In this document: positions 5,499 through 22,542 of the stretch, one piece after another
Layout of the letters: every line of letters starts with the position of its first letter
Numbering within the stretch: the stretch's first letter is position 1
Origin: Nanobdellota archaeon
GTDB taxonomy: Archaea > Nanobdellota > Nanobdellia > Pacearchaeales > GW2011-AR1
Assembly: GCA_038045485.1 (NCBI GenBank)
Contig: JBBSYA010000030.1
Location: forward strand, 1 to 34,858
Reading direction: 5' to 3'
DNA length: 34,858 bases
Made by a program: the position numbers and the translations under genes
Notes under the pieces: model-generated
Databases searched by the model: none
The model's input: the letters and a program-made list of their open reading frames with translations, nothing else
Told to the model about the DNA's origin: nothing

Positions 5499-5570
5499 TC
5501 TAAATCCTACTGATAAGTTTATTTGTAATTCTAAATCCTACTGATAAGTTTATTTGTAATTCTAAATCCT
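5499..5570. repeat. Tandem direct repeat: a 31-bp unit in about 2.3 copies, spanning the stop codon of the 5531-6079 gene
   Basis: The unit tctaaatcctactgataagtttatttgtaat occurs at 5499-5529 and again identically at 5530-5560. A partial third copy, tctaaatcct, occupies 5561-5570. Confidence 0.9.
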
Positions 5571-6079
5571 TCGAATTTGATTGCAAATTCTCCCGTATCC
5601 TGACAATGATAAACCTTATGAGTAATTGTATAAAACCAGCCACGTATCTGACTAAAATTAGCTTCTTTCAAAATAGGATAATTCCCTGAGTTTAAAACAA
5701 GATGAGGAGCCTCAAAAATATACGGAGATTTTCCAAAACACTTTTCAAATTCTCTTATTCCAACCTGCAGATACTCTAAATCTCTTACTTCTCTAAACTC
5801 ACCATACCTGTGAGTTACACCATGCATACCAAGAGTTTTATTTAAACTCAGGATATATTCACACCAACTCTTATTTTCAGCAATAGATTTATTTTCAAAT
5901 AAAGGAATAACCATCAAACTACTGCCCCTATCTAAAATTCCCTGTGAACAAGGAATAACCGGACTAACATCATCTATCTGTCTTGGTAAAATAGTGCGGA
6001 CGGCAATTAAAACAAGGAAAACAATAAGAATACCAATAATACCTCCAATAAAATAACTCTTTAATTTTTTAAGTTTCAT
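5531..6079 (-). CDS. Membrane-anchored DUF2334 / polysaccharide-deacetylase-like protein (tentative)
   Basis: N-terminal TM anchor, then LMVIPLFENKSI..NKSWCEYILSLNKTLGMHGVTHRYGEF. This resembles the ..vvP.....HGytH...EF pattern I associate with DUF2334. Its start lies 1 nt after the stop of the prepilin peptidase gene. Confidence 0.4.
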   Translation of the reverse strand: MKLKKLKSYFIGGIIGILIVFLVLIAVRTILPRQIDDVSPVIPCSQGILDRGSSLMVIPLFENKSIAENKSWCEYILSLNKTLGMHGVTHRYGEFREVRDLEYLQVGIREFEKCFGKSPYIFEAPHLVLNSGNYPILKEANFSQIRGWFYTITHKVYHCQDTGEFAIKFEGFRITNKLISRI

Positions 6080-6080
6080 A

Positions 6081-6959
6081 TTAAAAATAGATTATACTTA
6101 GCAAAATTATTAATGCAATCAAAAATGCTGGAATAAACGGAACTCCATATCTTATCAAAACTTTTTTCTTATAATTTTTTTGAATAAACAAAAGTTCTTT
6201 TTCTGACAACCCTTCCCAATCTGGCTTAATTATTTTCTTTCCAATCTTAATAGAAGATATCAATAAATCGCCAATAGTTAAGTCTCTTGCATCCACAGAT
6301 TTAACCATACAACTATTCTCAACCGCCTTAGCCCAAATCATCAGCAAAGGAGAGATAAATATCAAAAGCGCGAGAAATCTGCCAGCATAAAAATCCAAAA
6401 CCACAGACAAAACAAACAAAAGCAAACCCATAACTCCAACAGCATAGGCTATTTTCTTATGCTTTCTAAGAATCACAGAAAATTCTTGTTTAAATCTTTT
6501 AAAATTCATAAACATAAGAATTTTACTATAGACGATTCCATAAACCGCACCAGCAATCAGGAATATTAAAGTAAATAAAATTATTAATTCTAAGTTTATC
6601 TTCCAATCAAAACTGAGAGGAATTATTGTTCCTAAAGCCATCAGCATTTTCGCATCTCCGCCCCCAAACATTCGTCCATAATAAAAAGCGTTCATAAGAA
6701 TAAATCCAAAACCCAATCCAATCAAGCCCCAGATAAAATAAACAGCATTCACTTCAGAAACAGAAACAAAAGCCCTAAAAACAAGAACAAAAGCAATAAG
6801 CGAAAATGTCCACCAATTCTCAACCTCTCGGCCCTTAAAATCCTGAATAGAAGCAATCACCAGCCAAAATATAGCAACTGCGATTAAAAATAAATTGTTC
6901 GCAGAAAATAACTCAACAGCATCAATAGAAATAGGTAGAAAGTTCAGTAGATTTAGCAT
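6081..6959 (-). CDS. Prepilin/preflagellin peptidase (aspartic peptidase family A24; PibD/FlaK/EppA-like)
   Basis: Polytopic protein. The first catalytic Asp context is ASIQDFKGREVENW and the second is the signature FGGGDAKMLMALG. A C-terminal GVPFIPAF segment follows an inserted hydrophilic region. Confidence 0.8.
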   Translation of the reverse strand: MLNLLNFLPISIDAVELFSANNLFLIAVAIFWLVIASIQDFKGREVENWWTFSLIAFVLVFRAFVSVSEVNAVYFIWGLIGLGFGFILMNAFYYGRMFGGGDAKMLMALGTIIPLSFDWKINLELIILFTLIFLIAGAVYGIVYSKILMFMNFKRFKQEFSVILRKHKKIAYAVGVMGLLLFVLSVVLDFYAGRFLALLIFISPLLMIWAKAVENSCMVKSVDARDLTIGDLLISSIKIGKKIIKPDWEGLSEKELLFIQKNYKKKVLIRYGVPFIPAFLIALIILLSIIYF

Positions 6960-7218
6960 TTATTTTTGTCCTCTTTTAGGTTATAAGAATATAGATTTCT
7001 TTAAGTTTTAAAGGTTATCATCCACCTCGCCGAGTTCTTGCATTTTTAGCTAAGTCAAATATTTTCTCAAAAATGCTGGAACGAGTGATTCGCTCGGCTT
7101 TTTTCATTTTCTGCTTAGCATAAGTCCAATAAATAAAAAACTAATAATTAAACCCAAATCGAATTGAAGTTAAGGCATTATTAAGAAGTTTATTACACGA
7201 AGTGCAAATTAAAAAATC

Positions 7219-7344
7219 TCATTTCTTCGCAGACTCATCCGTTCGCCACTTTCCACCATGTCGATAAGGAAAGAGCTTTCTATTTTTCTTTTTATCTTTG
7301 CCCTTATTTCTTCTTTCACTTCCACCAGAATAATCATCACTCAT
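7219..7344 (-). CDS. Possible very small basic protein (41 aa), not in the ORF track
   Basis: ATG at 7344-7342 and TGA at 7221-7219. Translation: MSDDYSGGSERRNKGKDKKKNRKLFPYRHGGKWRTDESAKK. It lies between the pilin operon and the peptidase gene. There is no supporting motif and it may be non-coding. Confidence 0.15.
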   Translation of the reverse strand: MSDDYSGGSERRNKGKDKKKNRKLFPYRHGGKWRTDESAKK

Positions 7345-7378
7345 AGTTACAAAAGAATATAGAAGTTTAAAAAGTTAA

Positions 7379-7990
7379 TTAAGCAGAACTAATAATGCTT
7401 GCCTTACTGCAACAAATAGTATTTACGGGCTTATTTGCCAAGTCCGCAGTATCTTTTACACTCGCAGTAAGTTCTTCATAAACTTTAGTATCGGTAATAC
7501 AAGTAGCTTTCCATTCTCCGCCTAAACTGCTACAAGTTGGGTTCCAAGTTTTCCAGAACTTACAAGTTTCACCATTAATCTTATAGGTTTCCTTTAACTT
7601 TAATGCTGTATTCAAACAACTATCTCTTGCATTAGCTTTCCAAAGATTTTCTTCACAAATAACATTATTAGTATCAAACTGAGTTTTAGTAGCTAAATAT
7701 TCACAATTAACCATTTGTTTTGTTCCAGAAATAGTTGTTTCCTTAAACTTAGTATCACCACAATAAGAGGATTTAAGATCTGGTGATTGCGCTTCATTAA
7801 CACAAGTAGAAACTAATAAAGAATCGATAGGCAAATTTCCTTGTATGCCCCCCAACGTAGCGAAAAAGCCAGTCTGCCAAAGAATAACGGCTATAGCAAA
7901 TACGACTATTAAAACAATACCAACAAAATACTCCCATTCCACAGCTGCCCTTTTATTATCCATTTTCATGTTCTCTTTTTCTATTCCCAT
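7379..7990 (-). CDS. Cysteine-rich pilin-like protein with a class III signal-peptide-like N-terminus; last gene of the pilin operon
   Basis: N-terminus ..MKMDNKRAAVEWEYFVGIVLIVVFAIAVIL (basic stretch, small residue, then a hydrophobic helix). The extracellular part contains 10 Cys. Confidence 0.55.
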   Translation of the reverse strand: MGIEKENMKMDNKRAAVEWEYFVGIVLIVVFAIAVILWQTGFFATLGGIQGNLPIDSLLVSTCVNEAQSPDLKSSYCGDTKFKETTISGTKQMVNCEYLATKTQFDTNNVICEENLWKANARDSCLNTALKLKETYKINGETCKFWKTWNPTCSSLGGEWKATCITDTKVYEELTASVKDTADLANKPVNTICCSKASIISSA

Positions 7991-8019
7991 AATGAATATC
8001 CTATTTATAAATATTCTGT

Positions 8020-8454
8020 TTAGCTTAAAATCCCTTCATATCTGAATTGATATAGATAATTCTCTCTGTATAAATCTGAAGAAACTGAAACATTGACATC
8101 TAAGGCTATTTTCAAATGTTTATCCTCAACCACAATATGCTTTGAATCTATCATTTTTTCTATCTCCAAAAATTCAGGCATGATATAATTTCCATCGCTA
8201 TTCTTAAGTTTATCAAAAGTGGCTCTAAAACTTTCAGCAGAATCTGCTTTCGATGAAACTTCTCTTAAATAAAATTCAACAATCTCTGCACGAGAATAAA
8301 CTTTCTGAATTTCTACTCCTGAATTTATTTTACTATCCACTGTATTTTTCTTAATATTAAAGGCTACTATAGAAGTCATAGCAAGAACAAGCGTAAATAT
8401 TACAAAAAGTACGATAGAAATATGCATGCTGGATTTTTTATTTTTGAGTATCAT
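8020..8454 (-). CDS. Pilin-like protein (class III signal-peptide-like N-terminus)
   Basis: N-terminus MILKNKKSSMHISIVLFVIFTLVLAMTSIVAF. Its start overlaps the upstream gene's stop by 4 nt. Confidence 0.6.
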   Translation of the reverse strand: MILKNKKSSMHISIVLFVIFTLVLAMTSIVAFNIKKNTVDSKINSGVEIQKVYSRAEIVEFYLREVSSKADSAESFRATFDKLKNSDGNYIMPEFLEIEKMIDSKHIVVEDKHLKIALDVNVSVSSDLYRENYLYQFRYEGILS

Positions 8455-9008
8455 CCGAAATAAACCGATAATTTTAATTGCTTATCAGAGAGAATTGGAA
8501 GGCTGATTTTAGTAGAACTGCTAAATACAGGTCCTGCTTCTCCGGAAGTATCACTAATGAAATTATTTTCAGTAAAATAAACTTTATTTTCTCCCTTGAT
8601 CAGAGTTATATCGCTATCTTCCAAAGCATAATTCTTCTGCAAAAATTCGGTAGCTTTGTCTTCAAAAATCTTTTCCCTTTCATCCTCTTTTCCATCTTTT
8701 ATATCTGCCTTCAAGACTAAATCATAAATAGTTTCTCCATTGCCTACATCCGACTCCAAGAAGCCAACTAATGCTTTTGTTACAGCCACTTCTGAATTAT
8801 CATAAGTTATGGCTATAGAAGTTTCACTCTTATCCTTATCTGCATAGGTTATGCTTACAAGAATAAAATAAAGCATCATAATTAATATAATGACAAAAGT
8901 TGCGGCTATCCACACAATCGTTGATGCTTCACTCGAGTGTTTGGACAAAAGCAATCGACATCCTGATTGGGCACAAAGACGAGTAGAACGTTTATTGTTT
9001 ATTATCAT
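8451..9008 (-). CDS. Pilin-like protein with an atypically long basic, Cys-containing segment before the hydrophobic helix
   Basis: I place the start at the ATG at 9008-9006 (MIINNKRSTRLCAQSGCRLLLSKHSSEASTIVWIAATFVIILIMMLYFILV), 1 nt after the stop of the upstream gene (9010). The ORF-track start at 9074 would overlap the upstream gene by 65 nt. Confidence 0.5.
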   Translation of the reverse strand: MIINNKRSTRLCAQSGCRLLLSKHSSEASTIVWIAATFVIILIMMLYFILVSITYADKDKSETSIAITYDNSEVAVTKALVGFLESDVGNGETIYDLVLKADIKDGKEDEREKIFEDKATEFLQKNYALEDSDITLIKGENKVYFTENNFISDTSGEAGPVFSSSTKISLPILSDKQLKLSVYFG

Positions 9009-9009
9009 T

Positions 9010-9501
9010 TTATAGTTGATTTGATGCTGAAACAATTGAAAAAGTATATTTAATCTTAGTTTGTTCGTCTTCAACGATTAAATTATCTCTACCGCATTTA
9101 GCAAAATTTTCCTCCCTTTTTTGATTACTAAACTGATAATTGCACATAACTTCAAAAGTGCCCTTTCCACCCAAAATTTGCTTTATGGCTTTTCCAGATT
9201 CTGTTTCTTGAAGAGTCACATTAATATAGTAAAAATTCGAATCCTCAATTGTTGCCCTATTCAACCCACACCTTGAATAAATATCAAATTCATCTGAATT
9301 AAATTTTTCCAGAGTAAAATCTTTACTTAAACAATCCCCAAGTCGGTCCGTTAAAATTTGTGATTCGGCTAATCTCGCATCAGCCAGAACATCAAGAAAG
9401 ATTAACGCGCCTAAAACAATACAGCCCCCAATAATAATCCAATTTATGAACATCCAAATAGAAAGGTATCTTTCACCAGCTTGCTTATTTTTGATTATCA
9501 T
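9010..9501 (-). CDS. Pilin-like protein (class III signal-peptide-like N-terminus)
   Basis: N-terminus MIIKNKQAGERYLSIWMFINWIIIGGCIVLGALIFL. Its start lies 1 nt downstream of the preceding stop. Confidence 0.6.
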   Translation of the reverse strand: MIIKNKQAGERYLSIWMFINWIIIGGCIVLGALIFLDVLADARLAESQILTDRLGDCLSKDFTLEKFNSDEFDIYSRCGLNRATIEDSNFYYINVTLQETESGKAIKQILGGKGTFEVMCNYQFSNQKREENFAKCGRDNLIVEDEQTKIKYTFSIVSASNQL

Positions 9502-9502
9502 T

Positions 9503-9898
9503 TTAAGTTTTAATTGTTAACAGACATTTATTTGAATCAAACAATATATCCCCTATTTCTAATTGGCTAAAAAATCTAAAGCTATTGCCTTTATTATCTG
9601 AAGTTTTTACTGTAAGAATTCCCAAAGTATAATCCGCAGTAACTAAATTCTCTCCAAAATTGTTCTTAATTGCGGCTCTGCAAAGTTCACCAACATCCAT
9701 AACTAATTCTGTTCCGGGCTTCATCTGATCAATAGTCAAAGCTAATCTTCTTACTTCTTTTTTCTCGAGAAAATTATCAGTATTTCCTACTTGAGAGATA
9801 AAAAGCAGCATCAAACTAAAAAACAAAACATTCAAAATGATAAAAATAGTAACTCCTGAAAGTATATCGCTTTGAGATTTTTTATTTTTGAATTCCAT
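9503..9898 (-). CDS. Pilin-like protein (class III signal-peptide-like N-terminus)
   Basis: N-terminus MEFKNKKSQSDILSGVTIFIILNVLFFSLMLLFISQ. Confidence 0.6.
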   Translation of the reverse strand: MEFKNKKSQSDILSGVTIFIILNVLFFSLMLLFISQVGNTDNFLEKKEVRRLALTIDQMKPGTELVMDVGELCRAAIKNNFGENLVTADYTLGILTVKTSDNKGNSFRFFSQLEIGDILFDSNKCLLTIKT

Positions 9899-9914
9899 TT
9901 TATTTAAAAATAGT

Positions 9915-10910
9915 TTAACTTATGCTCTGAAAACGCTGAATATGTAATGCTGTTAGGTCTTCAGCCGTATAAGGTTTTAAGTATATTGAAGAGCAATATC
10001 TCTCCTTATTGTTCGAAACGAAATCATTCCAGGTATCATCAGCTTCAGAAGCAATAGCGCCTCCTGCTAATGAAACAATTATACCTGCAGCAACAACTGT
10101 AACAGAGCCTACCGCACCAACGGCGGCTCCAGCAATAGTACCTGCACCTGGTATAACGCTCCCATAAATAGCTCCTGCGAGTATAGCTCCTCCAACGGCG
10201 CTACCTTGCTTACTAAGTAAATTCCTTTCATATTCAACAAAAACAACACTATAAGGTTGATTTGTAGAAAGCTTCTTATCATTCAAAACATCTTCAGATG
10301 CAACTCTTAGAGGTATAACTGTCGGATTAGCTATATTAGCAAGATACTGAGCATAAGTATATGTTTTTTCGGGCACTTTTTCAGTATTCATATAATTATA
10401 AAATTTCTGAGTGCTCAATTCAGGATATTTTAATTTAGCATCATCACTAAAGCCTATTATTGAACATATAACACCATTTGAAGGGTTTGCAAAAAGTGAA
10501 AACTCTCTTGAAAAGACCATTCCGCCTTTTGACTCGCCCATCATACTCCAGCAAGCAGCCATGGAATCAGCTACTACTTTGTAAATTGCAGTTTCAGAAG
10601 AAACGATAGTTTTCGTATATTCCTTGCCCAGTAAGATATCACAATTAGTTTTATCTCCTTTAACCATCAAACAAATATTTTCAGTTTTACATCTTAAGGG
10701 AATATCCACCCACTTCCCGCCTACTAAAGGTTTCTCAATTCCTATTGTTTTTTTTAAAGTAACGCTCGAATAACATGTTTCTTCATTTATCTGACTTCCA
10801 AGATTTAACTGAGATAATAAAAATAAAATGACTCCGATACTTATTGCAAGAACTATAACTGCTAAAAGAAAATTCCAGTTTGTTTCTTGTGATTTTTTAG
10901 TATTCTTCAT
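9915..10910 (-). CDS. Large pilin-like protein (331 aa) with an additional C-proximal Gly/Ala-rich (glycine-zipper-like) hydrophobic region
   Basis: N-terminus MKNTKKSQETNWNFLLAVIVLAISIGVILFLL. Residues about 233-290 read GSAVGGAILAGAIYGSVIPGAGTIAGAAVGAVGSVTVVAAGIIVSLAGGAIAS. Several Cys lie in the middle domain. Confidence 0.6.
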   Translation of the reverse strand: MKNTKKSQETNWNFLLAVIVLAISIGVILFLLSQLNLGSQINEETCYSSVTLKKTIGIEKPLVGGKWVDIPLRCKTENICLMVKGDKTNCDILLGKEYTKTIVSSETAIYKVVADSMAACWSMMGESKGGMVFSREFSLFANPSNGVICSIIGFSDDAKLKYPELSTQKFYNYMNTEKVPEKTYTYAQYLANIANPTVIPLRVASEDVLNDKKLSTNQPYSVVFVEYERNLLSKQGSAVGGAILAGAIYGSVIPGAGTIAGAAVGAVGSVTVVAAGIIVSLAGGAIASEADDTWNDFVSNNKERYCSSIYLKPYTAEDLTALHIQRFQSIS

Positions 10911-10922
10911 TTTTTAGATTTA

Positions 10923-11048
10923 TTAAATTAAATTCTTAAATTTAATTATAACATAAACAACGCCCAGGGCTACCAAAAGATAGGCCGCCCACAGGAATAT
11001 TCTTGCGAGCCAATTAATCTGGGCTTTTTTTATTTTTAGCTCTTTCAT
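10923..11048 (-). CDS. Mini class III-like membrane peptide (41 aa), not in the ORF track
   Basis: ATG at 11048-11046 and TAA at 10925-10923. Translation: MKELKIKKAQINWLARIFLWAAYLLVALGVVYVIIKFKNLI. It fits exactly between the two flanking pilin-like genes, with gaps of 1 nt and 12 nt. Confidence 0.4.
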   Translation of the reverse strand: MKELKIKKAQINWLARIFLWAAYLLVALGVVYVIIKFKNLI

Positions 11049-11049
11049 T

Positions 11050-11646
11050 TTATACGGGCACTATTGTTAATTTATCATTAGCCTTATCATAAGTTATTTT
11101 CAAATTTTTGATATCTGCCTCAGTCCAGCCCTGAATAATTATGGGCTTGTGTTTGGTTCCTAAACCAATCAAATTAAGAAAGACACTATCGGAGGGATTA
11201 ACCGAAAAATCCTTTACCTTTATTTCAACGCAGATAGGATTTCCATCACAGGCTTCTCTAATATTTGTTTTAGTTGCGATAGCTCTTTTAGTGCCAGCTA
11301 TTCCCGAGATGCTTAAATCACAGAAGCACAAACAATTAGTCCATCCTTGAGAAATACAATAATTAGCACTCATTCCATCTTCAAGAGGCCAGCCAACAAG
11401 TGCCCAACCCTCAGGCCCAATAAGGGGATAATTTATAGTTTTAGCATCACGTTCCTGAAGATTAGAAATTACTCCTGAAAGTTTATTCAACTCGCCCTGT
11501 GCTCTAGCTGCCTCTTGCTTATCTGCAGATAAAAGATTGTAAACTGACGAACCTAAAAGAAGCAATGCCACAATACAAAGTGCAGCGATAATAAGATTAA
11601 CAGTATGCTCTCCTAATAACTCAAATGCTTTTTTATTTTTTATCAT
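11050..11646 (-). CDS. Pilin-like protein (class III signal-peptide-like N-terminus), Cys-containing
   Basis: N-terminus MIKNKKAFELLGEHTVNLIIAALCIVALLLLGSS. A Cys cluster reads NYCISQGWTNCLCFCD..EACDGNPIC. An AGGTGA Shine-Dalgarno-like sequence lies about 12 nt upstream. Confidence 0.65.
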   Translation of the reverse strand: MIKNKKAFELLGEHTVNLIIAALCIVALLLLGSSVYNLLSADKQEAARAQGELNKLSGVISNLQERDAKTINYPLIGPEGWALVGWPLEDGMSANYCISQGWTNCLCFCDLSISGIAGTKRAIATKTNIREACDGNPICVEIKVKDFSVNPSDSVFLNLIGLGTKHKPIIIQGWTEADIKNLKITYDKANDKLTIVPV

Positions 11647-11663
11647 CTTATTTTTATTTCACC

Positions 11664-12293
11664 TTAAATCCAGGGTACAAATCGAATATTATATTCTACA
11701 TGAAGCGGAAAACCTCTTCTTACAATGCTATTCTTATCTGGATAATTCTTAAAGATATCAAAAGTATATTCTCCATTTTTCGCCCAACCCGCATCTTCAA
11801 CTATCCTATCAATAAAATAATAGCTTTTAGTACCTATCATCTTGGGTGTATAATCTTTTTGTATATTCAAAAATAAAGAAACGATGGAAACATCATCTCG
11901 GATATCCCTTGTAACCAAAGCATAAGTTCTACATGCATACTTGGGATTTTTAGAATCCGCCAAATTTCCTATATCGTCTTTAAATTTTATTGCTACGTAA
12001 ACTAAACCGGGTTCAATAGTAAGACCATTAATATTTTTACCAGTTGCATCAGCCCAATAAAAAGCATAATCCAAACAGGGATCATCAGTTCTTAATTCAA
12101 GAGGCTGACTCGAAGCATCTCCAGAAGCCATTGCTTTATTTCCACTCCCAAAACTAGGCAGTACATTCTTCAGAATAGTAAGCCCATCTGCCATAAACAA
12201 CCAGTATAAAATTCCTCCAACAGTAAGGGCAACAATTAAAATAGCTACCACTGTTTCCGCATTTATCTCTGCTTTTTTATTTTTTATTTTCAT
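11664..12293 (-). CDS. Pilin-like protein (class III signal-peptide-like N-terminus)
   Basis: I prefer the start at 12293 (MKIKNKKAEINAETVVAILIVALTVGGIL) because it matches the M-x-[IF]-K-N-K-K-[AS] N-termini of the paralogs. The alternative ATG at 12311 overlaps the upstream small ORF's stop as ATGA. Confidence 0.6.
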   Translation of the reverse strand: MKIKNKKAEINAETVVAILIVALTVGGILYWLFMADGLTILKNVLPSFGSGNKAMASGDASSQPLELRTDDPCLDYAFYWADATGKNINGLTIEPGLVYVAIKFKDDIGNLADSKNPKYACRTYALVTRDIRDDVSIVSLFLNIQKDYTPKMIGTKSYYFIDRIVEDAGWAKNGEYTFDIFKNYPDKNSIVRRGFPLHVEYNIRFVPWI

Positions 12294-12307
12294 TTTATTT
12301 AAAGACC

Positions 12308-12466
12308 TCATCTAAAGCTAAGTAGATTTTTTATAAATTCAGTTATTTCTGTGCCTCGCGTAGTAAAGAGAACTATACCTCCAATTACCAATAAAGCCCC
12401 TGCAGCCCATAGGGCTATCTGACCTATAACTTCGATATTCCATGCTCCCTTTTTATTAAATACCAT
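12308..12466 (-). CDS. Mini class III-like membrane protein (52 aa), first ORF of the pilin operon, not in the ORF track
   Basis: ATG at 12466-12464 and TGA at 12310-12308. Translation: MVFNKKGAWNIEVIGQIALWAAGALLVIGGIVLFTTRGTEITEFIKNLLSFR. GAGGT lies 9 nt upstream of the ATG. Confidence 0.45.
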   Translation of the reverse strand: MVFNKKGAWNIEVIGQIALWAAGALLVIGGIVLFTTRGTEITEFIKNLLSFR

Positions 12467-12475
12467 CTTTTATCT

Positions 12476-12510
12476 ACCTCAAAAATAAGAATAAAAAGAA
12501 TTATATAAAC
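12476..12510 (-). promoter_or_regulatory. Putative promoter (TATA-like GTTTATATAA) and Shine-Dalgarno (GAGGT) for the pilin operon
   Basis: Reverse-strand TTTATATAA at 12509-12501 lies about 40 nt upstream of the ATG at 12466. GAGGT occupies 12480-12476. Confidence 0.35.
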
Positions 12511-12647
12511 CTTACTTAATCTATTGAATCAACAAGCCCACACCACCATCCACCTACTAAACCCCCCAATAAAAAAATCCCCTATATCTCAAAAACCCGT
12601 TACATTATTAAGTATTTATTATAATCGCTAAGCGCAAACTAAAATTC

Positions 12648-14822
12648 TCAAACCAAACTCGGCAGTGCAACAGCCGCAATGCTTGAAAGTGCGATTAAAG
12701 CTACAAGCGCTACAATATAATAAAGCAATCCACCAGAAAGAAGATTCTTGCCTATTTCATAAGTTGATTTTAATTCATCAGGTCCTGAATCAACAGTAAC
12801 TAATGTTTTTGTTAAAATAAAGATTATTTCAATAATATAAATTCCTACGCAGACTTGAAGAAAATAAGGCGGAATTAAATTTTCCACTCCAAATAAGCCA
12901 GTAATTTTGCCAGCTATTCCTGTATCTGTGCTTCCAGCCACATCAATAAGACTTTTTAACTTAGTAAGTATTAAAGTAATCATTGAAGATAAGCCAACAA
13001 CAAAACCCGCAAGTATTGGCGCAAGGAAAGTCATATTGCTCTTCATATCTGAAGTTACTTCTGCAAGTAAATCTCTAAGTCTATCATTAATCTTATTAAT
13101 ATTTCTTATATAATCCGCAATACTCATTAAAGAAGCAGCCGCAACCTGCAATCCTTTTTTTACGCTTTCCACAAGAATATGCATACTCGTTGAAATTAAA
13201 TTAGAAGGATAATTTATTATTGCTCCTCTTTTTGGATCAAATATAGCTCGATCTAAAGGCATTCCCATGGATTGAATATTTGAATTAACTGCTCTGAAAA
13301 AGTCTGCGGTAACTAATCCTTTCGAACTTTCGGCAACTCGCGCAAATGCAAGTTCAGCCGGAGTCCCATCGCCGATTCTATTGCCTAATTGAAAAAGAGA
13401 ATTATTAAATTCAGCCTCAAGCATTTTAGAATAATCGCGGGATTTTATTATTTCCTGTGTTCTTAATTTATAAGAAATAGAATAAAATAGGACAATAGAA
13501 AGCGGAATAAACATGCTAAGAATTAACGCAAAAGTGCCCATAGGCCCAACAGTTACTCCATTAGAAGTGATAAAATCAAAAAGTTTTGCGTCTCCTAAAA
13601 AAGATAAACCAATTTCATAAAAAGAATAGTCTGTTTTTAATCCGAGCCATACCGGAATCGGAGTATATTGAAAAATAAAGGGCAATAAACCTAATATTAA
13701 AAGGGGGACGGCTATTGCAGCAGCTTTCCAATAAGGCTTATGAGATTTATATTTAGCATAAAGGGGATTTAACTCCAAGATAGAAGATTCTCCATAACCT
13801 CCTGGCCTTCTAAGCATAATATTATTAGTCATATAGAAAACAAAAAAAGGCACGAGCAAATTAAAAAGAATAAAGACATGATACCATTTTATGGCACCGT
13901 TCATCAATGCAGAAGCAAGAGGAATAAGCGCGAGCGCAAGTGTTGGCAACACTATTCCAAGCATATAAAGATTAGTTAATGGCGCTTTTACATCATGAGA
14001 ATATTTCATCATCTTATCATAAACCCCATCAAGAATTACCTGAAGTGATCTTTCCAGAATTTGCATTCTGCGAGCTTCACTCGGCTCAAAAAGAGAAGAT
14101 TCTATAAGATTAAAACTTTCCACAAATTCAGAATTAGTTTCTCTCCAAGTTTCAAGATAAACATCAAGACTTTCTTTTATCGTAGAATATTTTCCTGTTT
14201 CAACATCCCAAAAAACTTTTTTCAAATCAAGCGCCAATGGCGGTTCTAAATGTTGTGACGCAAATCTTATAGCTCTCTCCAAATTAGAAGTATGTTTCAT
14301 ATAAACAACAGTATAAAGAATGCAGGGAACCATCTGCGAACCCGCCCTCAATCTCCATTGATTAGCCAGTCTCGAAGGCATACTATAAAAATAGTAAAAT
14401 AAAAATCCTGCAGTTAAAAAACATAAAAAGAAAATTAAAATTATGGGCGACATTTTTTGCCCTGTTCCAAAAGTTAAAAGATAAAGCGCGGCAGAAAGAA
14501 GGATGCCTGCAAAAAGAGTAAGAATAAAAGATAGCACCGCAAGAGATACAACATTCTCCGGTCTTGTTTCTAAATGTGCGGAATCAATATTCTTCTGTAT
14601 TTTTTTATTGTCTTTTTCTGAAAGTTTAATCTTTAGAGAGCCGCCAATATTATTGCACCAATTTTCATATCGTGAAAATTTAGGCAGCATCTCATTTTTG
14701 AATTGTTGAAATTCTGAAGATATATTCACATTTGAGGTGTTTGGCATAGGGCTGACTCGTGAAGAACTATCCAATCTTCCACCATATTTTCTTAGAATAT
14801 CATCTACGTTTTCAGTTGCCAT
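12648..14822 (-). CDS. Polytopic platform membrane protein of the type IV pilus/archaellum-like machinery (FlaJ/TadC/PilC superfamily)
   Basis: 724 aa. Two cytoplasmic helical domains each precede clusters of TM helices, as in the T2SSF-like architecture. It lies immediately upstream of the pilin-like operon. The assignment rests on architecture and context, not on a strict motif. Confidence 0.6.
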   Translation of the reverse strand: MATENVDDILRKYGGRLDSSSRVSPMPNTSNVNISSEFQQFKNEMLPKFSRYENWCNNIGGSLKIKLSEKDNKKIQKNIDSAHLETRPENVVSLAVLSFILTLFAGILLSAALYLLTFGTGQKMSPIILIFFLCFLTAGFLFYYFYSMPSRLANQWRLRAGSQMVPCILYTVVYMKHTSNLERAIRFASQHLEPPLALDLKKVFWDVETGKYSTIKESLDVYLETWRETNSEFVESFNLIESSLFEPSEARRMQILERSLQVILDGVYDKMMKYSHDVKAPLTNLYMLGIVLPTLALALIPLASALMNGAIKWYHVFILFNLLVPFFVFYMTNNIMLRRPGGYGESSILELNPLYAKYKSHKPYWKAAAIAVPLLILGLLPFIFQYTPIPVWLGLKTDYSFYEIGLSFLGDAKLFDFITSNGVTVGPMGTFALILSMFIPLSIVLFYSISYKLRTQEIIKSRDYSKMLEAEFNNSLFQLGNRIGDGTPAELAFARVAESSKGLVTADFFRAVNSNIQSMGMPLDRAIFDPKRGAIINYPSNLISTSMHILVESVKKGLQVAAASLMSIADYIRNINKINDRLRDLLAEVTSDMKSNMTFLAPILAGFVVGLSSMITLILTKLKSLIDVAGSTDTGIAGKITGLFGVENLIPPYFLQVCVGIYIIEIIFILTKTLVTVDSGPDELKSTYEIGKNLLSGGLLYYIVALVALIALSSIAAVALPSLV

Positions 14823-15126: not shown

Positions 15127-15630
15127 TTATTTCTTCAGCAACAAAAATCCAACAACAACTACAGAAACAATAAACATTATGCTGTTCTTAATCGTATCAG
15201 AGTAAATATAATCCTTCAATTCTGAAAGTCCAGAGCCCAATCCTGCATTTGACGTGCTTGGCAAAACATGATTTAAGAGAGGAAACTGATGAAAAGCCCC
15301 AAGAATAATAACCAGCATACAGATAACAAAACCTATAATCGCAAGAGGTTTAGTAAACTGGACATCCTTTGCTACGAAAACCAGCACTAATAAAACTGAA
15401 AAAGATAAAATTAAAACTACCGACATCAAAGCAATCGCTCCAGCCATATATTCTGTTAATCCCGTTGAAGAAACAACAAGAAAGGTAAGCATAAAACTAA
15501 GCAACGCAAGAACAAAATTATTTCCTGGCAGCTTTATTTTTTTTAATCCGGCATAAATTAAGATTATCAGAGCTATCATCAGCCATATGGGCGTGTATTC
15601 TCCAAGGAAATTAAGTGAAATCATAATCAA
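15127..15630 (-). CDS. Small polytopic membrane protein, distant paralog of 22695-23261 and 23453-23941
   Basis: 167 aa with 4-5 TM segments. The first helix is followed by a basic loop and a short motif (LIYAGLKKIKLPGNNFVLALLSF), comparable to the paralog motif PFLL.F..VF.IL.KS.I.G...N.II. Confidence 0.55.
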   Translation of the reverse strand: MIMISLNFLGEYTPIWLMIALIILIYAGLKKIKLPGNNFVLALLSFMLTFLVVSSTGLTEYMAGAIALMSVVLILSFSVLLVLVFVAKDVQFTKPLAIIGFVICMLVIILGAFHQFPLLNHVLPSTSNAGLGSGLSELKDYIYSDTIKNSIMFIVSVVVVGFLLLKK

Positions 15631-15726
15631 GAATATTAATTTCTATTTTTAAAGCTTTCTATGTGTCGTAACTAAATAGTGGTGTTAAATAATAAGATTT
15701 AAAAAGATTGGTTATTTTAGGGGATT

Positions 15727-16578: not shown

Positions 16579-16587
16579 TTCTTAAAA

Positions 16588-18383: not shown

Positions 18384-18422
18384 TTTATTTTTGTTGTTTA
18401 TATTTTGAGACAAAAATAAAAG
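18384..18422 (-). promoter_or_regulatory. Conserved 39-nt upstream block, copy 2 of 3
   Basis: Sequence: tttatttttgttgtttatattttgagacaaaaataaaag. It differs from copy 3 at 1 position and from copy 1 at 4. Confidence 0.6.
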
Positions 18423-18423
18423 A

Positions 18424-20262: not shown

Positions 20263-22542
20263 ATGTTATTCAAACCAGGAACCCCTGTCTATGCATTTGA
20301 AGTTGAAAGAGAAGGCGATCAAGATGTAATGTATATCAATTATCTTGGTGCATCTGCTGTTCCAAGTATTGCTGATTCTTCCGAAGTTATGGCAAGAGTT
20401 ATAGAATATCTCGAAAGAACACCAAACATAACCCGAATCGTTTTTGTACAGCAGAGAAACTATAGTTATGATTTTAGCCAGATAGTTCTTTTAAGAGATA
20501 TTGCAAATCTTGATATTTATTTAACAAAGCAAGAAAAAATCCTATCACCAAATAAACTTTCATTCAATAATCCCTACGAACTTGCGAGAAGGTATGAATT
20601 CGTAAGTTATATGCTTTCATTTCTAAAATCTGACCCCTTAACATGTTATTTTGATTTAAAAAACGAGATTATTTCTCAAAAAGCCCTACTCGAAAAGATT
20701 CCGGAACAGGCAAAATATGATTTAAGAGTTTATATTAAAACCCTCGAAAATTTTCACAATCTTTTAGAAAATACAAAATTAATAAAAATTCTACAGAAAA
20801 ATCTTGATGGATATTCTCGTGCTAACAGAAATCCCTACAGCAGTATTTTCAGACCAGATGTAATTCCTAACTTTACCTTTACAAGATTAGCTGCGCAAAT
20901 TCCAAAAGGCGCAGAAATTTTCGACCAATATGAAATTGGAACTGGCTATGATACTTCTACTGTAACAATTTTAAAAAAACCAGAAGAGGTTAAATTCCTT
21001 TATCATTTAATGCCACCAGAATATAGTTTAGAAGAAGAACATCATCTTCTTTTAAATCTTGCAAGAAATGTTTTGATTGAACATCAGCCAAAAGCTGAAG
21101 AGTTTACTGACCCTGAACGAGTAAGACAGGTTTTTTTCAATGTCGCTAAAGATTTACTTCAAGAACTTGCAGATAGCCAAAATATTAAATTAAGCTATTC
21201 AGACATAAATCGTTTAGCATCAATTCTTGTTCGCCATACTATTGGTTTTGGTTTAATTGAGGTTCTATTGCAGGATAAAAATCTGCAAGATATTGTTCTC
21301 AATGCCCCAATAACTCAAAATCCTATTTTTCTAAGACACACCCAATTTGACGAGTGTTACACAAATATTTTGCCAAGCCAAGAAGACGCAGACTCTTGGG
21401 CAGCAAAATTTAGAATGATTTCAGGACGTCCTTTAGATGAAGCAAATCCGGTTTTAGATACCGATTTATCAATTGGAGATTTAAGAGCGAGAATCGCCGT
21501 TGTTCAACAGCCACTATCTCCCTCGGGATTAGCCTATGCAATTAGAAGACATAGAGAATCTCCATGGACACTTCCACTTTTTATTAAAAATAAAATGATT
21601 AATCCGCTTGCTGCTGGATTGATGAGTTTTTTAGTTGATGGAAGCAGAACAATGTTGGTTGCAGGAACAAGGAGCTCTGGAAAAACATCTCTTCTCGGCG
21701 CACTTATGTTAGAAATTATGCCCAGATACAGAATAATTACAATTGAAGATACGCCCGAACTTGCAGTAGACACAATGCGAAAATTAAGATATGATATTCT
21801 TAGAATGAAAGTTCGTTCAGCATTACTTCAAACAACAACCGAGGTTGCAGCAGACGAAGGAATAAGAACTTCTCTTCGTCTTGGAGACTCTTCATTGATT
21901 GTTGGCGAAGTTAGAAGTCAAGAAGCTCGAGCACTATATGAGGCAATGAGAGTTGGTGCTTTAGCAAATGTTGTTGCAGGAACAATTCATGGCGCTTCAC
22001 CTTACGGAGTTTTTGACAGAGTTGTAAATGATTTAGGCGTTCCAGTAACTTCTTTCAAAGCAACTGATTGTATTATTGTTGCAAATCCTGTTAAAACAGC
22101 AGACGGAATGCATTCGATAAAAAGAATGATTGGTTTAACTGAAATAAGAAAACATTGGACAAAAGATCCTCTTGAAGAAAAAGGTTTTGTGGACTTACTA
22201 ACCTATAATGTTGAAAAAGATATTCTCGAGCCGACTGATGATTTAATTAATGGAGATAGTGAAATCATTAAAGATATTGCTGGCGGAGTTAAAGGCTGGG
22301 CAGGAAACTGGGATGCTGTTTACGATAACATTCTTCTTCGTGCAAAAACTAAAGAAGAAATAGTAAATATTGCAGAAAAATTAAACAAGCCCGAATTACT
22401 TGAAGCAGAGTTCACAGTTTTAAGCAACGCAATGTTCCATCAAATATCAGATAAAATTCGTGAAGAAATCGGCTTGCCTTGGGGCGATAGGGTTTTTCCA
22501 GAATGGCAAAAATGGGCAATTAATGCTGCAAAAAGGATTTAA
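20263..22542 (+). CDS. Type IV pilus/archaellum-type secretion ATPase (FlaI/PilB/VirB11 superfamily) with a long N-terminal region
   Basis: Walker A is VAGTRSSGKTSLLGA. The Walker B/Asp-box region is SSLIVGEVRSQEARALYEAM. A His-box-like AGTIHGAS is present. 759 aa. Confidence 0.85.
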   Translation: MLFKPGTPVYAFEVEREGDQDVMYINYLGASAVPSIADSSEVMARVIEYLERTPNITRIVFVQQRNYSYDFSQIVLLRDIANLDIYLTKQEKILSPNKLSFNNPYELARRYEFVSYMLSFLKSDPLTCYFDLKNEIISQKALLEKIPEQAKYDLRVYIKTLENFHNLLENTKLIKILQKNLDGYSRANRNPYSSIFRPDVIPNFTFTRLAAQIPKGAEIFDQYEIGTGYDTSTVTILKKPEEVKFLYHLMPPEYSLEEEHHLLLNLARNVLIEHQPKAEEFTDPERVRQVFFNVAKDLLQELADSQNIKLSYSDINRLASILVRHTIGFGLIEVLLQDKNLQDIVLNAPITQNPIFLRHTQFDECYTNILPSQEDADSWAAKFRMISGRPLDEANPVLDTDLSIGDLRARIAVVQQPLSPSGLAYAIRRHRESPWTLPLFIKNKMINPLAAGLMSFLVDGSRTMLVAGTRSSGKTSLLGALMLEIMPRYRIITIEDTPELAVDTMRKLRYDILRMKVRSALLQTTTEVAADEGIRTSLRLGDSSLIVGEVRSQEARALYEAMRVGALANVVAGTIHGASPYGVFDRVVNDLGVPVTSFKATDCIIVANPVKTADGMHSIKRMIGLTEIRKHWTKDPLEEKGFVDLLTYNVEKDILEPTDDLINGDSEIIKDIAGGVKGWAGNWDAVYDNILLRAKTKEEIVNIAEKLNKPELLEAEFTVLSNAMFHQISDKIREEIGLPWGDRVFPEWQKWAINAAKRI

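What the first reader, a model, noticed from the sequence alone, without database searches (positions are those of the whole stretch)
6081..14822. Dispersed type IV pilus-like system with an unusually large and diverse pilin set
One reverse-strand operon (12466 down to 7379) encodes eight proteins whose N-termini follow one template. The template is M-x-[IF]-K-N-K-K-[A/S] followed by a helix of about 20 hydrophobic residues:
- MIKNKKAFELLGEH
- MKIKNKKAEINAE
- MEFKNKKSQS
- MIIKNKQAGE
- MIINNKRSTR
- MILKNKKSSM
- MKNTKKSQET
- MDNKRAAVEW

This is the class III signal peptide logic, in which a basic residue then a small residue precede the cleavage site. It matches the A24 peptidase at 6081-6959 (GGGDAKM motif).

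The operon follows a FlaJ/TadC-like platform gene. The FlaI/PilB-type ATPase sits 5.4 kb away on the other strand. Genes in the operon are separated by -4 to +29 nt.

Beyond the N-terminal helix the mature domains show no obvious similarity to each other. Several are Cys-rich. I see no archaellum accessory genes (FlaC-H types), so this looks like an adhesion pilus.

If the organism is an episymbiotic DPANN-type archaeon, this is a prime candidate host-attachment apparatus, and its subunits are likely uncharacterised families.

A TM-anchored DUF2334/deacetylase-like gene is co-transcribed with the peptidase at 1-nt spacing. That hints at a surface-glycan modification step.
Basis: partly seen in the sequence, partly recalled or inferred. 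Interest (0 to 1): 0.65.

Follow-up and report, generated by a model that had tools for sequence, protein, structure and literature searches.

The report
Pacearchaeota type IV pilus-like operon
A tiny groundwater archaeon (Pacearchaeota, DPANN) carries a complete type IV pilus-like assembly machine with ten different pilin-like subunit genes; the layout is shared by hundreds of related species, the subunit genes change far faster than the machinery, and none of them is recognised by standard annotation.

Summary
The reverse-strand operon (12466 to 7379) holds ten ORFs, not eight. Each has a short K/N-rich leader ending in [KR/Q][G/A/S], then a hydrophobic helix of about 20 residues. The count is 10 against a mean of 0.2 in shuffles.

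The machinery is also confirmed:
- An A24 prepilin peptidase whose two catalytic Asp are both present and invariant in orthologs.
- A TadA/GspE/FlaI-family ATPase.
- A 724-aa membrane protein that escapes Pfam T2SSF. Remote homologs and a predicted fold link it to T2SSF platforms.

The contig comes from a Hainich groundwater Pacearchaeota-type DPANN archaeon. The platform gene had a pilin-like operon beside it in all 53 related loci with enough flanking sequence, in a conserved size order. The usual layout is ATPase, platform, pilins, peptidase. The "dispersed" layout here is a lineage-specific inversion.

The pilin block is hypervariable. Against one relative the flanks are 71–88% identical in DNA, but the block shows no DNA similarity.

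I conclude this is a divergent archaeal type IV filament system. A role in adhesion or host contact is plausible but untested. The proposed DUF2334 link is weak. Novelty is moderate: a new variant of a known kind.

The parts
20263..22542 (+). Secretion/assembly ATPase of the TadA/GspE/FlaI family, 759 aa. About 270 aa of N-terminal extension precede the conserved core. Walker A (GTRSSGKTS), Asp box (IITIEDTPEL), Walker B-like (LIVGEVR) and His box (GTIHGAS) can all be read in the sequence.
   Evidence: Pfam T2SSE, E 1.8e-14. NCBIfam TadA-family 3.3e-37 and FlaI 4.1e-36, both below the equivalog cut-offs. Best PDB sequence hits: A. fulgidus GspE 2OAP 8e-28, CpaF 2e-22, FlaI 5e-16. Adjacent to the platform gene and on the same strand in 51 of 67 related loci.
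12648..14822 (-). Divergent T2SSF-type (FlaJ/TadC/PilC-like) polytopic platform protein, 724 aa. It has two repeats, each a cytoplasmic helical bundle followed by TM helices.
   Evidence: No direct Pfam or NCBIfam hit. More than 3000 homologs at 55-90% identity in Pacearchaeota, Woesearchaeota and Nanoarchaeota MAGs. 18 of 33 distant full-length homologs carry Pfam T2SSF, best E 3.2e-10. AF2 model pLDDT 73.7. Foldseek matches: PilC model 3jc8_Ca (prob 0.94); EpsF/OutF cytoplasmic domains (prob 0.98-1.00, target-normalised TM-score 0.66-0.73). The two halves align with P = 0.0012 in hhalign.
12308..12466 (-). p52: mini pilin-like protein (MVFNKKG|AWNIEV...). It has a leader, one hydrophobic helix and a short conserved tail (IKNL.sF.), with no globular domain. 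Candidate Flp/EpdE-like filament subunit.
   Evidence: Orthologs found in 56 related loci, mostly as the first gene after the platform, with Gly at -1 in 46 of the 57 family members.
11664..12293 (-). p209: pilin-like protein (MKIKNKKA|EINAETVV...). It occupies the operon position that varies most in length among relatives (180-605 aa).
   Evidence: It passes the FlaFind 1.2 motif. It is 60% identical in L082 and undetectable in L004.
11050..11646 (-). p198: pilin-like protein (MIKNKKA|FELLGEH...), 7 Cys, with a conserved C-rich motif (nCLCiC).
   Evidence: Orthologs in 56 related loci.
10923..11048 (-). p41: second mini pilin-like protein (MKELKIKKA|QINWLARIFLW...).
   Evidence: Orthologs of 36-44 aa at the same operon position in 30 related loci. 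It passes the FlaFind 1.2 motif.
9915..10910 (-). p331: the largest conserved pilin-like subunit (MKNTKKS|QETNWN...). It has a long N-terminal helix, an alpha/beta head with invariant Cys residues and a CWSMMGE motif, and a Gly/Ala-rich hydrophobic segment (about residues 235-290).
   Evidence: AF2 model pLDDT 75.7, helix at residues 12-55, segment 238-290 at low confidence. No PDB fold match, prob <= 0.13. 146 homologs, none with a Pfam domain. Invariant C46, C74, C80 and C90.
9503..9898 (-). p131: pilin-like protein (MEFKNKKS|QSDILSG...).
   Evidence: Orthologs in 50 related loci.
9010..9501 (-). p163: pilin-like protein (MIIKNKQA|GERYLSIW...). The window has Gln at -2; relatives have KKG|GEkxLS.
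   Evidence: Orthologs in 50 related loci.
8451..9008 (-). p185: pilin-like protein (MIINNKRS|TRLCAQSGC...). About 22 residues containing two Cys are inserted between the cleavage motif and the helix. L082 shares the insertion.
   Evidence: Orthologs in 40 related loci, where KKA|QIGSTLTW is canonical.
8020..8454 (-). p144: pilin-like protein (MILKNKKS|SMHISIVLF...). It overlaps p185 by 4 nt.
   Evidence: Orthologs in 46 related loci.
7379..7969 (-). p196: last pilin-like gene (MKMDNKRA|AVEWEYF...; an alternative ATG at 7990 gives 203 aa). It has 10 Cys. It sits at the position held in relatives by a canonical pilin (KKG|AEMTIGTIIVIILALVVLV).
   Evidence: It passes the FlaFind 1.2 motif.
6081..6959 (-). 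A24-family class III signal (prepilin/preflagellin) peptidase, 292 aa. Catalytic Asp40 lies in IQDFKGRE and Asp102 in GGGDAKM.
   Evidence: Pfam Peptidase_A24, E 6.5e-13. NCBIfam FlaK 5.5e-11. Aligns to FlaK (3S0X) across both Asp motifs, E 4e-8. D40 and D102 are invariant in all 45 sequences aligned, the window's own included. Present downstream of the pilin block in 37 of 44 loci with a complete flank.
5531..6079 (-). DUF2334 protein with an N-terminal signal anchor, 1 nt downstream of the peptidase gene. Its membership of the system is doubtful.
   Evidence: Pfam DUF2334, E 1.1e-8. Found in only 5 of the other loci held, and its N-termini are not consistently class III-like.

Best explanation
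This is a complete but highly divergent archaeal type IV filament (type IV pilus-like) system of a Pacearchaeota-type DPANN archaeon.

Shown:
- Ten co-oriented, tightly spaced genes encode proteins with a 6-8 residue basic leader ending in [KR/Q][G/A/S], followed by a hydrophobic helix.
- The locus also encodes an A24 aspartyl peptidase with both catalytic Asp, a T2SSF-type platform and a TadA/GspE/FlaI-family ATPase.
- The same gene set, in the same order, flanks the platform gene in every related genome with enough sequence.

Inferred mechanism:
1. The precursors insert into the membrane with the N-terminus inside.
2. The peptidase removes the leader at the cytoplasmic face.
3. The hexameric ATPase acts through the platform to extract the N-terminal helices and stack them into a helical fibre.
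4. One or more small subunits form the shaft. Candidates are p52, p41 or the terminal canonical pilin.
5. The other, individually conserved subunits act as minor pilins that prime assembly and sit at the tip.
6. The large or length-variable subunits (p331 and the p209 position) are the candidates for contacting a surface or host cell.

The block of pilin genes evolves, or is exchanged, far faster than the machinery. That pattern fits exposed subunits under diversifying or host-specificity selection.
For: - Motif and clustering: 10 ORFs against a mean of 0.2 in shuffles.
- Peptidase.
- ATPase.
- Platform: remote homologs with Pfam T2SSF, and Foldseek matches to the PilC model and to EpsF/OutF cytoplasmic domains at prob 0.94-1.00.
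- Conservation: all 53 related loci with at least 7 kb of flank have 6-12 class-III-like ORFs next to the platform, 42 downstream on the same strand and 11 divergent. The size order is conserved and there are separate ortholog groups for 8-9 of the 10 positions.
- Cleavage site in relatives: among 359 proteins, position -1 is G in 213, A in 113 and S in 33; position -2 is K in 257 and R in 101. The window's A/S sites are therefore a drifted form of the canonical KKG site.
- Structure: the p331 model has an N-terminal helix from residue 12 to 55 followed by an alpha/beta head.
- Hypervariability against L004: ATPase 91%, platform 87% and peptidase 73% identical, but pilins 22-35% identical or undetectable. 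DNA similarity is lost exactly over 7348-12444.
- Hypervariability overall: pilin identity stays near 30% across platform identities of 50-87%.
[quoted passage not shown] DPANN dark-matter genes next to FlaI/TadC were already proposed to be diverse pilins (PMC6393860).
Against: - No pilin-like protein here or in relatives matches any pilin or class III Pfam family, even at E <= 0.1-1.
- Only 3 of the 10 window proteins, and 272 of 538 proteins in relatives, satisfy the strict FlaFind 1.2 motif.
- Many have 1-3 polar residues between the putative cleavage site and the hydrophobic helix; p185 has about 22.
- The window platform has no direct T2SSF hit, and the Foldseek E-values for the full-length model are not significant (0.07-2.6).
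- p331 carries a second hydrophobic Gly/Ala-rich segment that is odd for a filament subunit.
- There is no expression, proteomic or imaging evidence; no RNA run holds the sequence.
- A filament has not been seen, and the adhesion role is pure inference.
- Part of the gene-neighbourhood conservation may simply reflect general synteny among related small genomes.
Confidence: 0.75

Rival explanations
1. The machine does not build a long adhesive pilus. Instead it builds a short pseudopilus or piston, as in bacterial type II secretion or competence systems. It would be used to export proteins or to take up DNA or nutrients from the environment or a host. The ten conserved subunits would be stoichiometric parts of that device.
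For: Ten non-redundant pilin-like genes are kept in a fixed order with one-to-one orthology across many species. That resembles the fixed pseudopilin sets of T2SS and Com systems more than a simple adhesin pilus. The ATPase is closer to afGspE and CpaF than to FlaI. Pacearchaeota have minimal metabolism and are thought to depend on host resources (10.1101/2020.05.14.094862). No retraction ATPase or second ATPase is present in the window.
Against: The window holds no ComEC/DprA-like gene, no secretin-like gene and no candidate cargo gene. The extreme variability of the pilin block is more typical of exposed surface structures than of an internal piston. Archaea lack an outer membrane, so a T2SS-like piston has no obvious barrier to cross.
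Confidence: 0.13
2. This is a bindosome-like surface display system. The class III N-termini serve mainly to anchor and organise functional extracellular proteins at the cell surface rather than to form a filament.
For: Archaeal class III signal peptides are also used by substrate-binding proteins assembled by a type IV filament (TFF) machine (PMC3047682; 10.64898/2026.04.22.720090). The mature domains here are mutually unrelated and several are Cys-rich.
Against: None of the mature domains matches a substrate-binding or enzyme family. No ABC transporter is linked to the locus. Two members (p52, p41) have no extracellular domain at all and look like pure filament subunits.
Confidence: 0.05
3. 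These are ordinary Sec-dependent signal-anchored membrane proteins. Their K/N-rich N-termini reflect AT-rich codon usage, and their clustering near a peptidase and ATPase is only conserved synteny.
For: The genome is about 32% G+C, so Lys and Asn codons are common. Strict FlaFind passes only 3 of 10 proteins. The neighbouring DUF2334 protein has a superficially similar N-terminus that is not conserved as class III. Unrelated housekeeping genes such as HIT, aEF-1beta and RPA are also syntenic in related loci.
Against: In relatives the -1 residue is Gly in 213 of 359 proteins, encoded by GGN, which AT bias does not explain. The motif is position-specific, and the hydrophobic helix follows within a few residues in all ten proteins. 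Shuffles give a mean of 0.2 against 10 observed. The genes are always next to a T2SSF platform, whether the operon is co-directional or divergent.
Confidence: 0.04
4. It is an archaellum (a motility filament).
For: The ATPase hits the FlaI model at 4e-36 and the peptidase hits FlaK.
Against: No protein matches archaellin, FlaH, FlaF/G or FlaC/D/E families. The ATPase scores higher against afGspE and CpaF than against FlaI. The FlaI and FlaK hits are far below the equivalog cut-offs.
Confidence: 0.02

Closest known systems
Epd pili of Methanococcus maripaludis (archaeal type IV filament (TFF) 'system 1' / Makarova clade 1)
   Same: It is a multi-gene cluster (11 genes in M. maripaludis) with several different pilins. 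It also has a short major pilin lacking a globular domain, a dedicated class III peptidase, and a reported presence in some DPANN (10.64898/2026.04.22.720090; PMC4858521). An acidic or Gln residue near position +1 of the mature protein is common in both.
   Different: System 1 has two separate platform genes and a 9-TM EppA peptidase. Here there is one 724-aa platform, and the peptidase aligns to 5/6-TM FlaK over its N-terminal half only. No Pfam Class_IIIsignal (DUF361) match was found. All ten genes here are pilin-like. ATPase clade membership was not tested.
Euryarchaeal PilB/PilC adhesion pili (archaeal type IV filament (TFF) 'system 2', e.g. Haloferax volcanii)
   Same: It has a single platform gene, an ATPase with an extended N-terminal region, and multiple pilins and pilin-like proteins beside the machinery genes (10.64898/2026.04.22.720090).
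   Different: There is no match to PilA-type (DUF1628 / Pilin_N) families. No large adhesin-like or PilY-like protein was recognised. The platform is too divergent for a direct T2SSF hit.
Bacterial Tad/Flp pili, and the minor-pilin or pseudopilin sets of T4aP, Com and T2SS systems
   Same: The core is the same: a TadA/CpaF-like ATPase (CpaF E 2e-22), a T2SSF platform, an A24 peptidase and very short Flp-like subunits. These systems also use a fixed set of several non-identical pilin-like proteins.
   Different: This is an archaeal, single-membrane system with no secretin and no alignment-complex genes. It has ten pilin-like genes in one operon, against 4-5 in the bacterial systems (from memory, not checked here). 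The leader ends in KK[G/A/S] rather than G|FTLIE or G|xxxxEY.
DPANN 'dark-matter' pilin islands noted by Makarova, Wolf and Koonin 2019 (PMC6393860, Fig. 2A)
   Same: The reasoning and probably the kind of locus are the same: unannotatable genes with signal peptides next to FlaI/TadC in DPANN genomes, proposed to be diverse pilins.
   Different: That paper gives one illustrative locus. It does not report conservation across the lineage, the fixed gene order, the mini-pilins or the cassette-like hypervariability. I could not check whether its example is a Pacearchaeota locus.

Membership tests
Type IV filament (TFF) superfamily system | Secretion-superfamily ATPase (T2SSE/TadA/FlaI family) with Walker A/B, Asp box and His box | tested here: met
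   Pfam T2SSE 1.8e-14. NCBIfam TadA-family 3.3e-37 and FlaI 4.1e-36. PDB afGspE 8e-28 and CpaF 2e-22. The motifs can be read in the sequence.
Type IV filament (TFF) superfamily system | Polytopic platform protein of the T2SSF (PilC/TadB-C/FlaJ) family | tested here: inconclusive
   The window protein has no T2SSF hit at E <= 1, and its profile has no significant PDB sequence hit. However, 18 of 33 remote homologs reached by its profile carry T2SSF, best E 3.2e-10. The AF2 model matches EpsF/OutF cytoplasmic domains (prob 0.98-1.00, target-normalised TM-score about 0.7) and a PilC model. Membership is supported indirectly, not directly.
Type IV filament (TFF) superfamily system | A24-family class III signal peptidase with two catalytic Asp, the second in a GxGD motif | tested here: met
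   Pfam Peptidase_A24 6.5e-13. Alignment to FlaK 3S0X covers both Asp motifs. D40 and D102 are invariant in all 45 sequences aligned, the window's own included.
Type IV filament (TFF) superfamily system | At least one pilin: a short basic leader, [KR][GA(S)] at -2/-1, then a hydrophobic helix of about 20 residues at the mature N-terminus | tested here: met
   Nine of the ten window proteins fit the relaxed rule and p163 has Q at -2. Three of the ten fit the strict FlaFind 1.2 motif, as do 272 of 538 proteins in relatives. The p331 model shows helix 12-55 plus a head domain. Cleavage itself is not testable here.
Type IV filament (TFF) superfamily system | Assembly of the processed subunits into a helical surface filament | not testable with these tools
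   No multimer modelling, imaging or proteomics was available, and no RNA run holds the locus.
Known archaeal pilin families (Pfam Pilin_N / DUF1628, Class_IIIsignal / DUF361, archaellin) | Significant match to the family profile | tested here: not met
   No such hit for any of the ten window proteins at E <= 1, nor for ten representative relatives at E <= 0.1. They should not be filed under these families.
Archaellum | FlaH, FlaF/G, FlaC/D/E or FlaX, and archaellins accompanying FlaI/FlaJ | tested here: not met
   None was detected among the window ORFs scanned with Pfam or NCBIfam. Genes outside the window cannot be excluded.
Epd-type pili (archaeal type IV filament (TFF) 'system 1') | Two platform genes, a 9-TM EppA-type peptidase and ATPase clade 1 | tested here: inconclusive
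   There is a single platform gene. A crude hydropathy scan finds about 6 strong TM segments in the peptidase, and homology to FlaK covers residues 27-152 only. No ATPase phylogeny was done.

The most novel reading that the evidence does not exclude
The ten-subunit operon, conserved across the Pacearchaeota-type DPANN lineage, may build something other than a plain adhesion pilus. It could be a specialised host-interaction organelle: a filament or pseudopilus whose tip complex recognises or penetrates a host envelope, or takes up host material. Under this reading the whole subunit block is swapped as a cassette between lineages and sets host range. p331 would be a new kind of membrane-active pilin, given its head fold with no PDB match, its invariant cysteines and its glycine-zipper-like segment.
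Probability: 0.2. Interest if true: 0.8.

Novelty: new variant of a known kind. Interest (0 to 1): 0.55.

Why it matters
Pacearchaeota are among the most metabolically reduced DPANN archaea. In size-fractionation studies they appear strongly host-attached, yet no host or attachment mechanism is known.

At least one groundwater study assigned pili-bearing ultra-small cells to CPR bacteria. Its ground was that type IV pilus components are "missing in DPANN genomes" (10.1101/2020.05.14.094862). This locus and its relatives show otherwise. At least 577 stretches in GTDB species-representative genomes encode the platform. A complete machine with about ten pilin-like genes is present, but standard annotation cannot see it: the platform and every subunit lack Pfam hits.

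The locus offers concrete candidates for the host-contact apparatus. It defines about ten new pilin-like protein families. It also provides a hypervariable cassette that could serve as a marker of host specificity or strain-level diversification.

Tried and rejected
- tRNA and Rfam scans of the window, including the 419-nt gap at 6960-7378, found nothing. The gap instead holds a conserved 41-aa basic ORF.
- Direct Pfam and NCBIfam assignment of the platform failed, as did PDB sequence searches with two profiles (best EpsF hit E 0.46). Transitive homology and predicted fold had to be used instead.
- A fold search with the p331 model found no meaningful PDB match.
- Expression evidence was sought: only DNA runs hold the locus, and no RNA run was found. 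The major pilin therefore could not be identified.
- I tested whether DUF2334 is itself a class III substrate, or a functional domain carried on the pilus. I rejected this because its homologs have heterogeneous, ordinary signal-anchor N-termini.
- I considered the coiled-coil proteins cc298 and cc122 as pilus accessory components, because they are conserved next to the ATPase in 43 and 52 loci. This remains unresolved. They share a near-identical promoter/operator element with the RPA-like gene, which points to a different regulon. The two proteins are not detectably homologous to each other.
- I looked for a donor of L004's divergent pilin cassette among the 80 loci. None is closer than about 38% identity.
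- Single-linkage BLAST clustering merged several positional families through the shared N-terminal helix. Per-position HMM ortholog groups were used instead. The p209 profile still drifted into the canonical-pilin family.

Full report
**Origin and context.** The platform protein is encoded, with an identical sequence, on a contig named Hain_H43_01um in ENA assembly ERZ1292632. That name points to the 0.1 µm fraction of Hainich groundwater. The window is about 32% G+C. It carries archaeal housekeeping genes: a split Hef helicase and nuclease, aEF-1beta, an RPA-like OB-fold protein, a diphthamide-synthase-family protein and a DRG-type GTPase. Homologs of the platform gene come almost only from MAGs labelled Candidatus Pacearchaeota, Woesearchaeota or Nanoarchaeota.

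**The observation.** Two further members were missed:
- p52 (12308-12466, MVFNKKG|AWNIEV...).
- p41 (10923-11048, MKELKIKKA|QINW...). This ORF fills the apparent 139-nt gap between p198 and p331.

With corrected starts, the ten genes are separated by -4 to +29 nt. (The last gap is 50 nt if p196 starts at 7969.) A home-made rule for class-III-like N-termini finds 10 ORFs in the window, all contiguous on the - strand. These are nine of the ten pilin-like genes plus the adjacent DUF2334 gene, which has an ordinary signal anchor; p185 fails the rule because of its long spacer. The mean was 0.2 and the maximum 2 in 100 dinucleotide-preserving shuffles. The mature parts show no significant pairwise similarity, with E > 0.2 throughout. 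Several are Cys-rich. None matches any Pfam or NCBIfam family.

**The machinery.**
- *Peptidase (6081-6959).* It is an A24 peptidase: Pfam E 6.5e-13 and FlaK 3S0X at 4e-8, with both catalytic Asp motifs aligned. D40 and D102 are invariant in all 45 sequences aligned, the window's own included.
- *ATPase (20263-22542).* It belongs to the T2SSE/TadA/FlaI family. It is closest in the PDB to A. fulgidus GspE (8e-28) and CpaF (2e-22), ahead of FlaI (5e-16).
- *Platform (12648-14822).* The direct test fails: there is no T2SSF hit even at E = 1 and no significant PDB sequence hit. Three indirect lines support the assignment:
  1. Its profile reaches 1200 cluster representatives. Of 33 distant full-length ones (22-30% identity), 18 carry Pfam T2SSF, best E 3.2e-10.
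  2. An AF2 model (pLDDT 73.7) has two repeats of a helical bundle plus TM helices. Its best Foldseek matches are a PilC model (3jc8_Ca, prob 0.94) and the EpsF/OutF cytoplasmic domains (prob 0.98-1.00, target-normalised TM-score 0.66-0.73, rmsd about 2.9 Å).
  3. The two halves align to each other with P = 0.0012.

I therefore treat the protein as a strongly diverged T2SSF platform. That claim is indirect.

**Conservation in relatives.** A pattern scan of GTDB species genomes found at least 577 stretches encoding the platform; 80 loci were fetched.
- In all 53 loci with at least 7 kb of flank, the platform gene is next to 6-12 class-III-like ORFs. They lie downstream on the same strand in 42 loci and are divergently transcribed in 11.
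- The order of sizes is conserved: [about 110], about 52, 200-600, 190-290, about 40, about 330, about 135, about 160, about 185, about 150, about 170, [about 100] aa.
- Separate ortholog groups exist for p52, p198, p41, p331, p131, p163, p185 and p144, each found in 30-56 related loci.
- In relatives the -1 residue is G in 213, A in 113 and S in 33 of 359 proteins. The -2 residue is K or R in 358. The window's A/S sites are thus a lineage-specific drift from the canonical KKG.
- The published FlaFind 1.2 motif (PMC4307647) is met by 3 of the 10 window proteins and by 272 of 538 proteins in relatives. Failures arise at -1 = S or at +1/+2, not from lack of a [KR][GAS] context.

**Layout.** In 51 of 67 loci the ATPase lies immediately upstream of the platform on the same strand. 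The peptidase follows the pilin block in 37 of 44 loci with a complete flank. The window's "dispersed" arrangement comes from two changes: an inversion of the block cc298, cc122, tm275, ATPase, and insertion of two PHP-domain genes and tm167. The closest relatives L004 and L082 share this arrangement. It is a local rearrangement of an otherwise compact locus.

**Subunit structure.** For p331 I collected 146 homologs, none annotated and none with a Pfam domain. The AF2 model (pLDDT 75.7, pTM 0.75) has these features:
- A continuous N-terminal helix from residue 12 to 55, with one kink. This is the hallmark of type IV pilins.
- An alpha/beta head with invariant Cys46, Cys74, Cys80 and Cys90 and a CWSMMGE motif.
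- A low-confidence Gly/Ala-rich hydrophobic segment at 238-290.

The head has no PDB fold match. p52 and p41 consist only of a leader, a helix and a short tail. In that they resemble Flp/EpdE-type shaft subunits.

**Hypervariable cassette.** Percent identity to the window proteins is as follows:

| Gene(s) | L082 | L004 | L084 |
|---|---|---|---|
| ATPase | 95 | 91 | 77 |
| Platform | 90 | 87 | 70 |
| Peptidase | 75 | 73 | 56 |
| Pilin-like proteins | 48-76 | 22-35 or undetectable | 29-45 |

The relation between machinery identity and pilin identity is non-monotonic. At the DNA level the window and L004 are collinear at 71-88% identity on both sides. They show no detectable similarity across 7348-12444, which is exactly the pilin block. 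Over 1241 locus pairs, mean pilin identity stays near 30% while platform identity ranges from 50 to 87%. The cause is either cassette replacement by recombination or extreme diversifying evolution confined to the subunits. Either fits exposed proteins under selection.

**Function.**
- *Shown:* the gene set and motifs of a type IV filament system.
- *Inferred:* processing by the A24 peptidase, ATPase- and platform-driven polymerisation, minor-pilin priming and tip roles for most subunits, and surface or host contact as the function.

No archaellum accessory genes are present. No RNA runs hold the locus, so neither expression nor the identity of the major pilin could be addressed. The rivals below cannot be excluded, and I rank each below the pilus model:
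- a T2SS- or Com-like pseudopilus for export or uptake;
- a bindosome-like display system;
- ordinary signal-anchored membrane proteins.

**DUF2334.** The gene is real: Pfam E 1.1e-8, starting 1 nt after the peptidase gene. It was found in only 5 of the other loci held. Its N-termini are ordinary signal anchors, not conserved class III signals. The suggested role in glycan modification is therefore weakly founded.

**Relation to the literature.**
- Archaeal type IV filament systems are well known and were recently surveyed again (PMC4858521; bioRxiv 10.64898/2026.04.22.720090).
- Multi-pilin clusters such as the 11-gene Epd cluster exist.
- DPANN dark-matter genes next to FlaI/TadC were already proposed to be pilins (PMC6393860).
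- In contrast, a groundwater study stated that type IV pilus components are missing from DPANN genomes, and used pili to assign ultra-small cells to CPR bacteria. The same study found Pacearchaeota enriched in host-attached size fractions (10.1101/2020.05.14.094862).

This locus is thus a new variant of a known kind. What stands out is:
- the divergence of its platform;
- ten ordered pilin-like families with no existing family assignment;
- the cassette-like variability of the pilin block.

Its value lies in giving concrete candidates for how Pacearchaeota contact their hosts.

Noticed in passing
window 3060-3080, 18425-18445, 18558-18578, 19130-19150, 30791-30811: A perfect palindrome, CWGAAAWTY-N3-RAWTTTCWG, occurs five times exactly. 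Allowing up to 2 mismatches there are 7 matches against 0.44 expected. For the RPA-like gene (ATG at 3019), cc298 (ATG at 18383) and cc122 (ATG at 19089) it is part of a near-identical element of about 65 nt: palindrome, then CTTTTATTTTTG, then ...AACAAAAATAAA-ATG. This looks like a shared operator plus promoter, i.e. a small regulon. It also explains the spurious 'NKNKM' N-termini of the TTG-extended ORFs. In L004 the same palindrome lies just upstream of the platform gene and of one pilin gene.
   Followed up: partly
window 7219-7344 (-): A conserved 41-aa, very basic ORF (MSDDYSGGSERRNKGKDKKKNRKLFPYRHGGKWRTDESAKK) lies in the 419-nt 'gap' between the last pilin gene and the peptidase gene. 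It is conserved in L082, L004 and L084, and conservation drops after its stop codon. Its function is unknown, and it is probably cytoplasmic.
   Followed up: partly
window 15127-20161 and 20263-22542: Relative to most Pacearchaeota loci, the block cc298, cc122, tm275, ATPase is inverted. Two PHP-domain genes (15727-16578 and 16588-17499) and tm167 sit between it and the platform gene. L004 shares this arrangement, PHP genes included; L082 shares the inversion but has two other small genes in place of the PHP genes.
   Followed up: yes
window 22695-23261 (-) and 23453-23941 (-): Two paralogous multi-TM proteins (BLASTP E 4e-10; shared motif VLPFLLxFxxVFxILxKSxIxG) with no Pfam match are conserved near the ATPase in 37 related loci. 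A PRC-barrel protein (24080-24385) is conserved there too. Whether they belong to the pilus system is unknown.
   Followed up: partly
window 17487-18383 (-) and 18721-19089 (-): Two coiled-coil proteins, one with a Gln-rich middle region, are conserved next to the ATPase in 43 and 52 related loci. They are not detectably homologous to each other. They could be cytoplasmic accessory or regulatory partners, or unrelated syntenic genes co-regulated with RPA.
   Followed up: partly
window 9915-10910 (-), residues about 235-290 of p331: A Gly/Ala-rich hydrophobic stretch (GSAVGGAILAGAIYGSVIPGAGTIAGAAVGAVGSVTVVAAGIIVSLAGGAIA) is predicted with low confidence. It looks like a glycine-zipper or second membrane-active segment, which is unusual for a pilin. 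It is partly conserved in close homologs and replaced in distant ones.
   Followed up: partly
window 8451-9008 (-), residues 9-31 of p185; L082 15805-16386: In this sub-lineage p185 has an insertion of about 22 residues with two Cys (..RLCAQSGCRLLLSKHSSEA..) between the KK[G/S] site and the hydrophobic helix. Other relatives have the helix directly after the site.
   Followed up: partly
L082 17516-18370 (-): In the closest relative (platform 90% identical), an rve-family integrase or IS element plus a 147-aa ORF is inserted between the last pilin gene and the peptidase gene. This is one of the two boundaries of the variable block.
   Followed up: no
window 32140-32802 (-): This is a diphthamide-synthase-family PP-loop ATPase (Pfam E 9.6e-66). 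Makarova et al. 2016 noted genes of this family inside clade-1 type IV pilus loci of methanogens. Here it lies about 10 kb from the ATPase gene and is probably unrelated.
   Followed up: no
window 25504-27075 (+) and 27321-28016 (+): The Hef-like helicase (DEAD/Helicase_C) and the ERCC4-HhH nuclease are encoded as separate genes. A 93-aa ORF (27038-27319) lies between them, and the relatives L082 and L083 have a similar small ORF at the same place.
   Followed up: no
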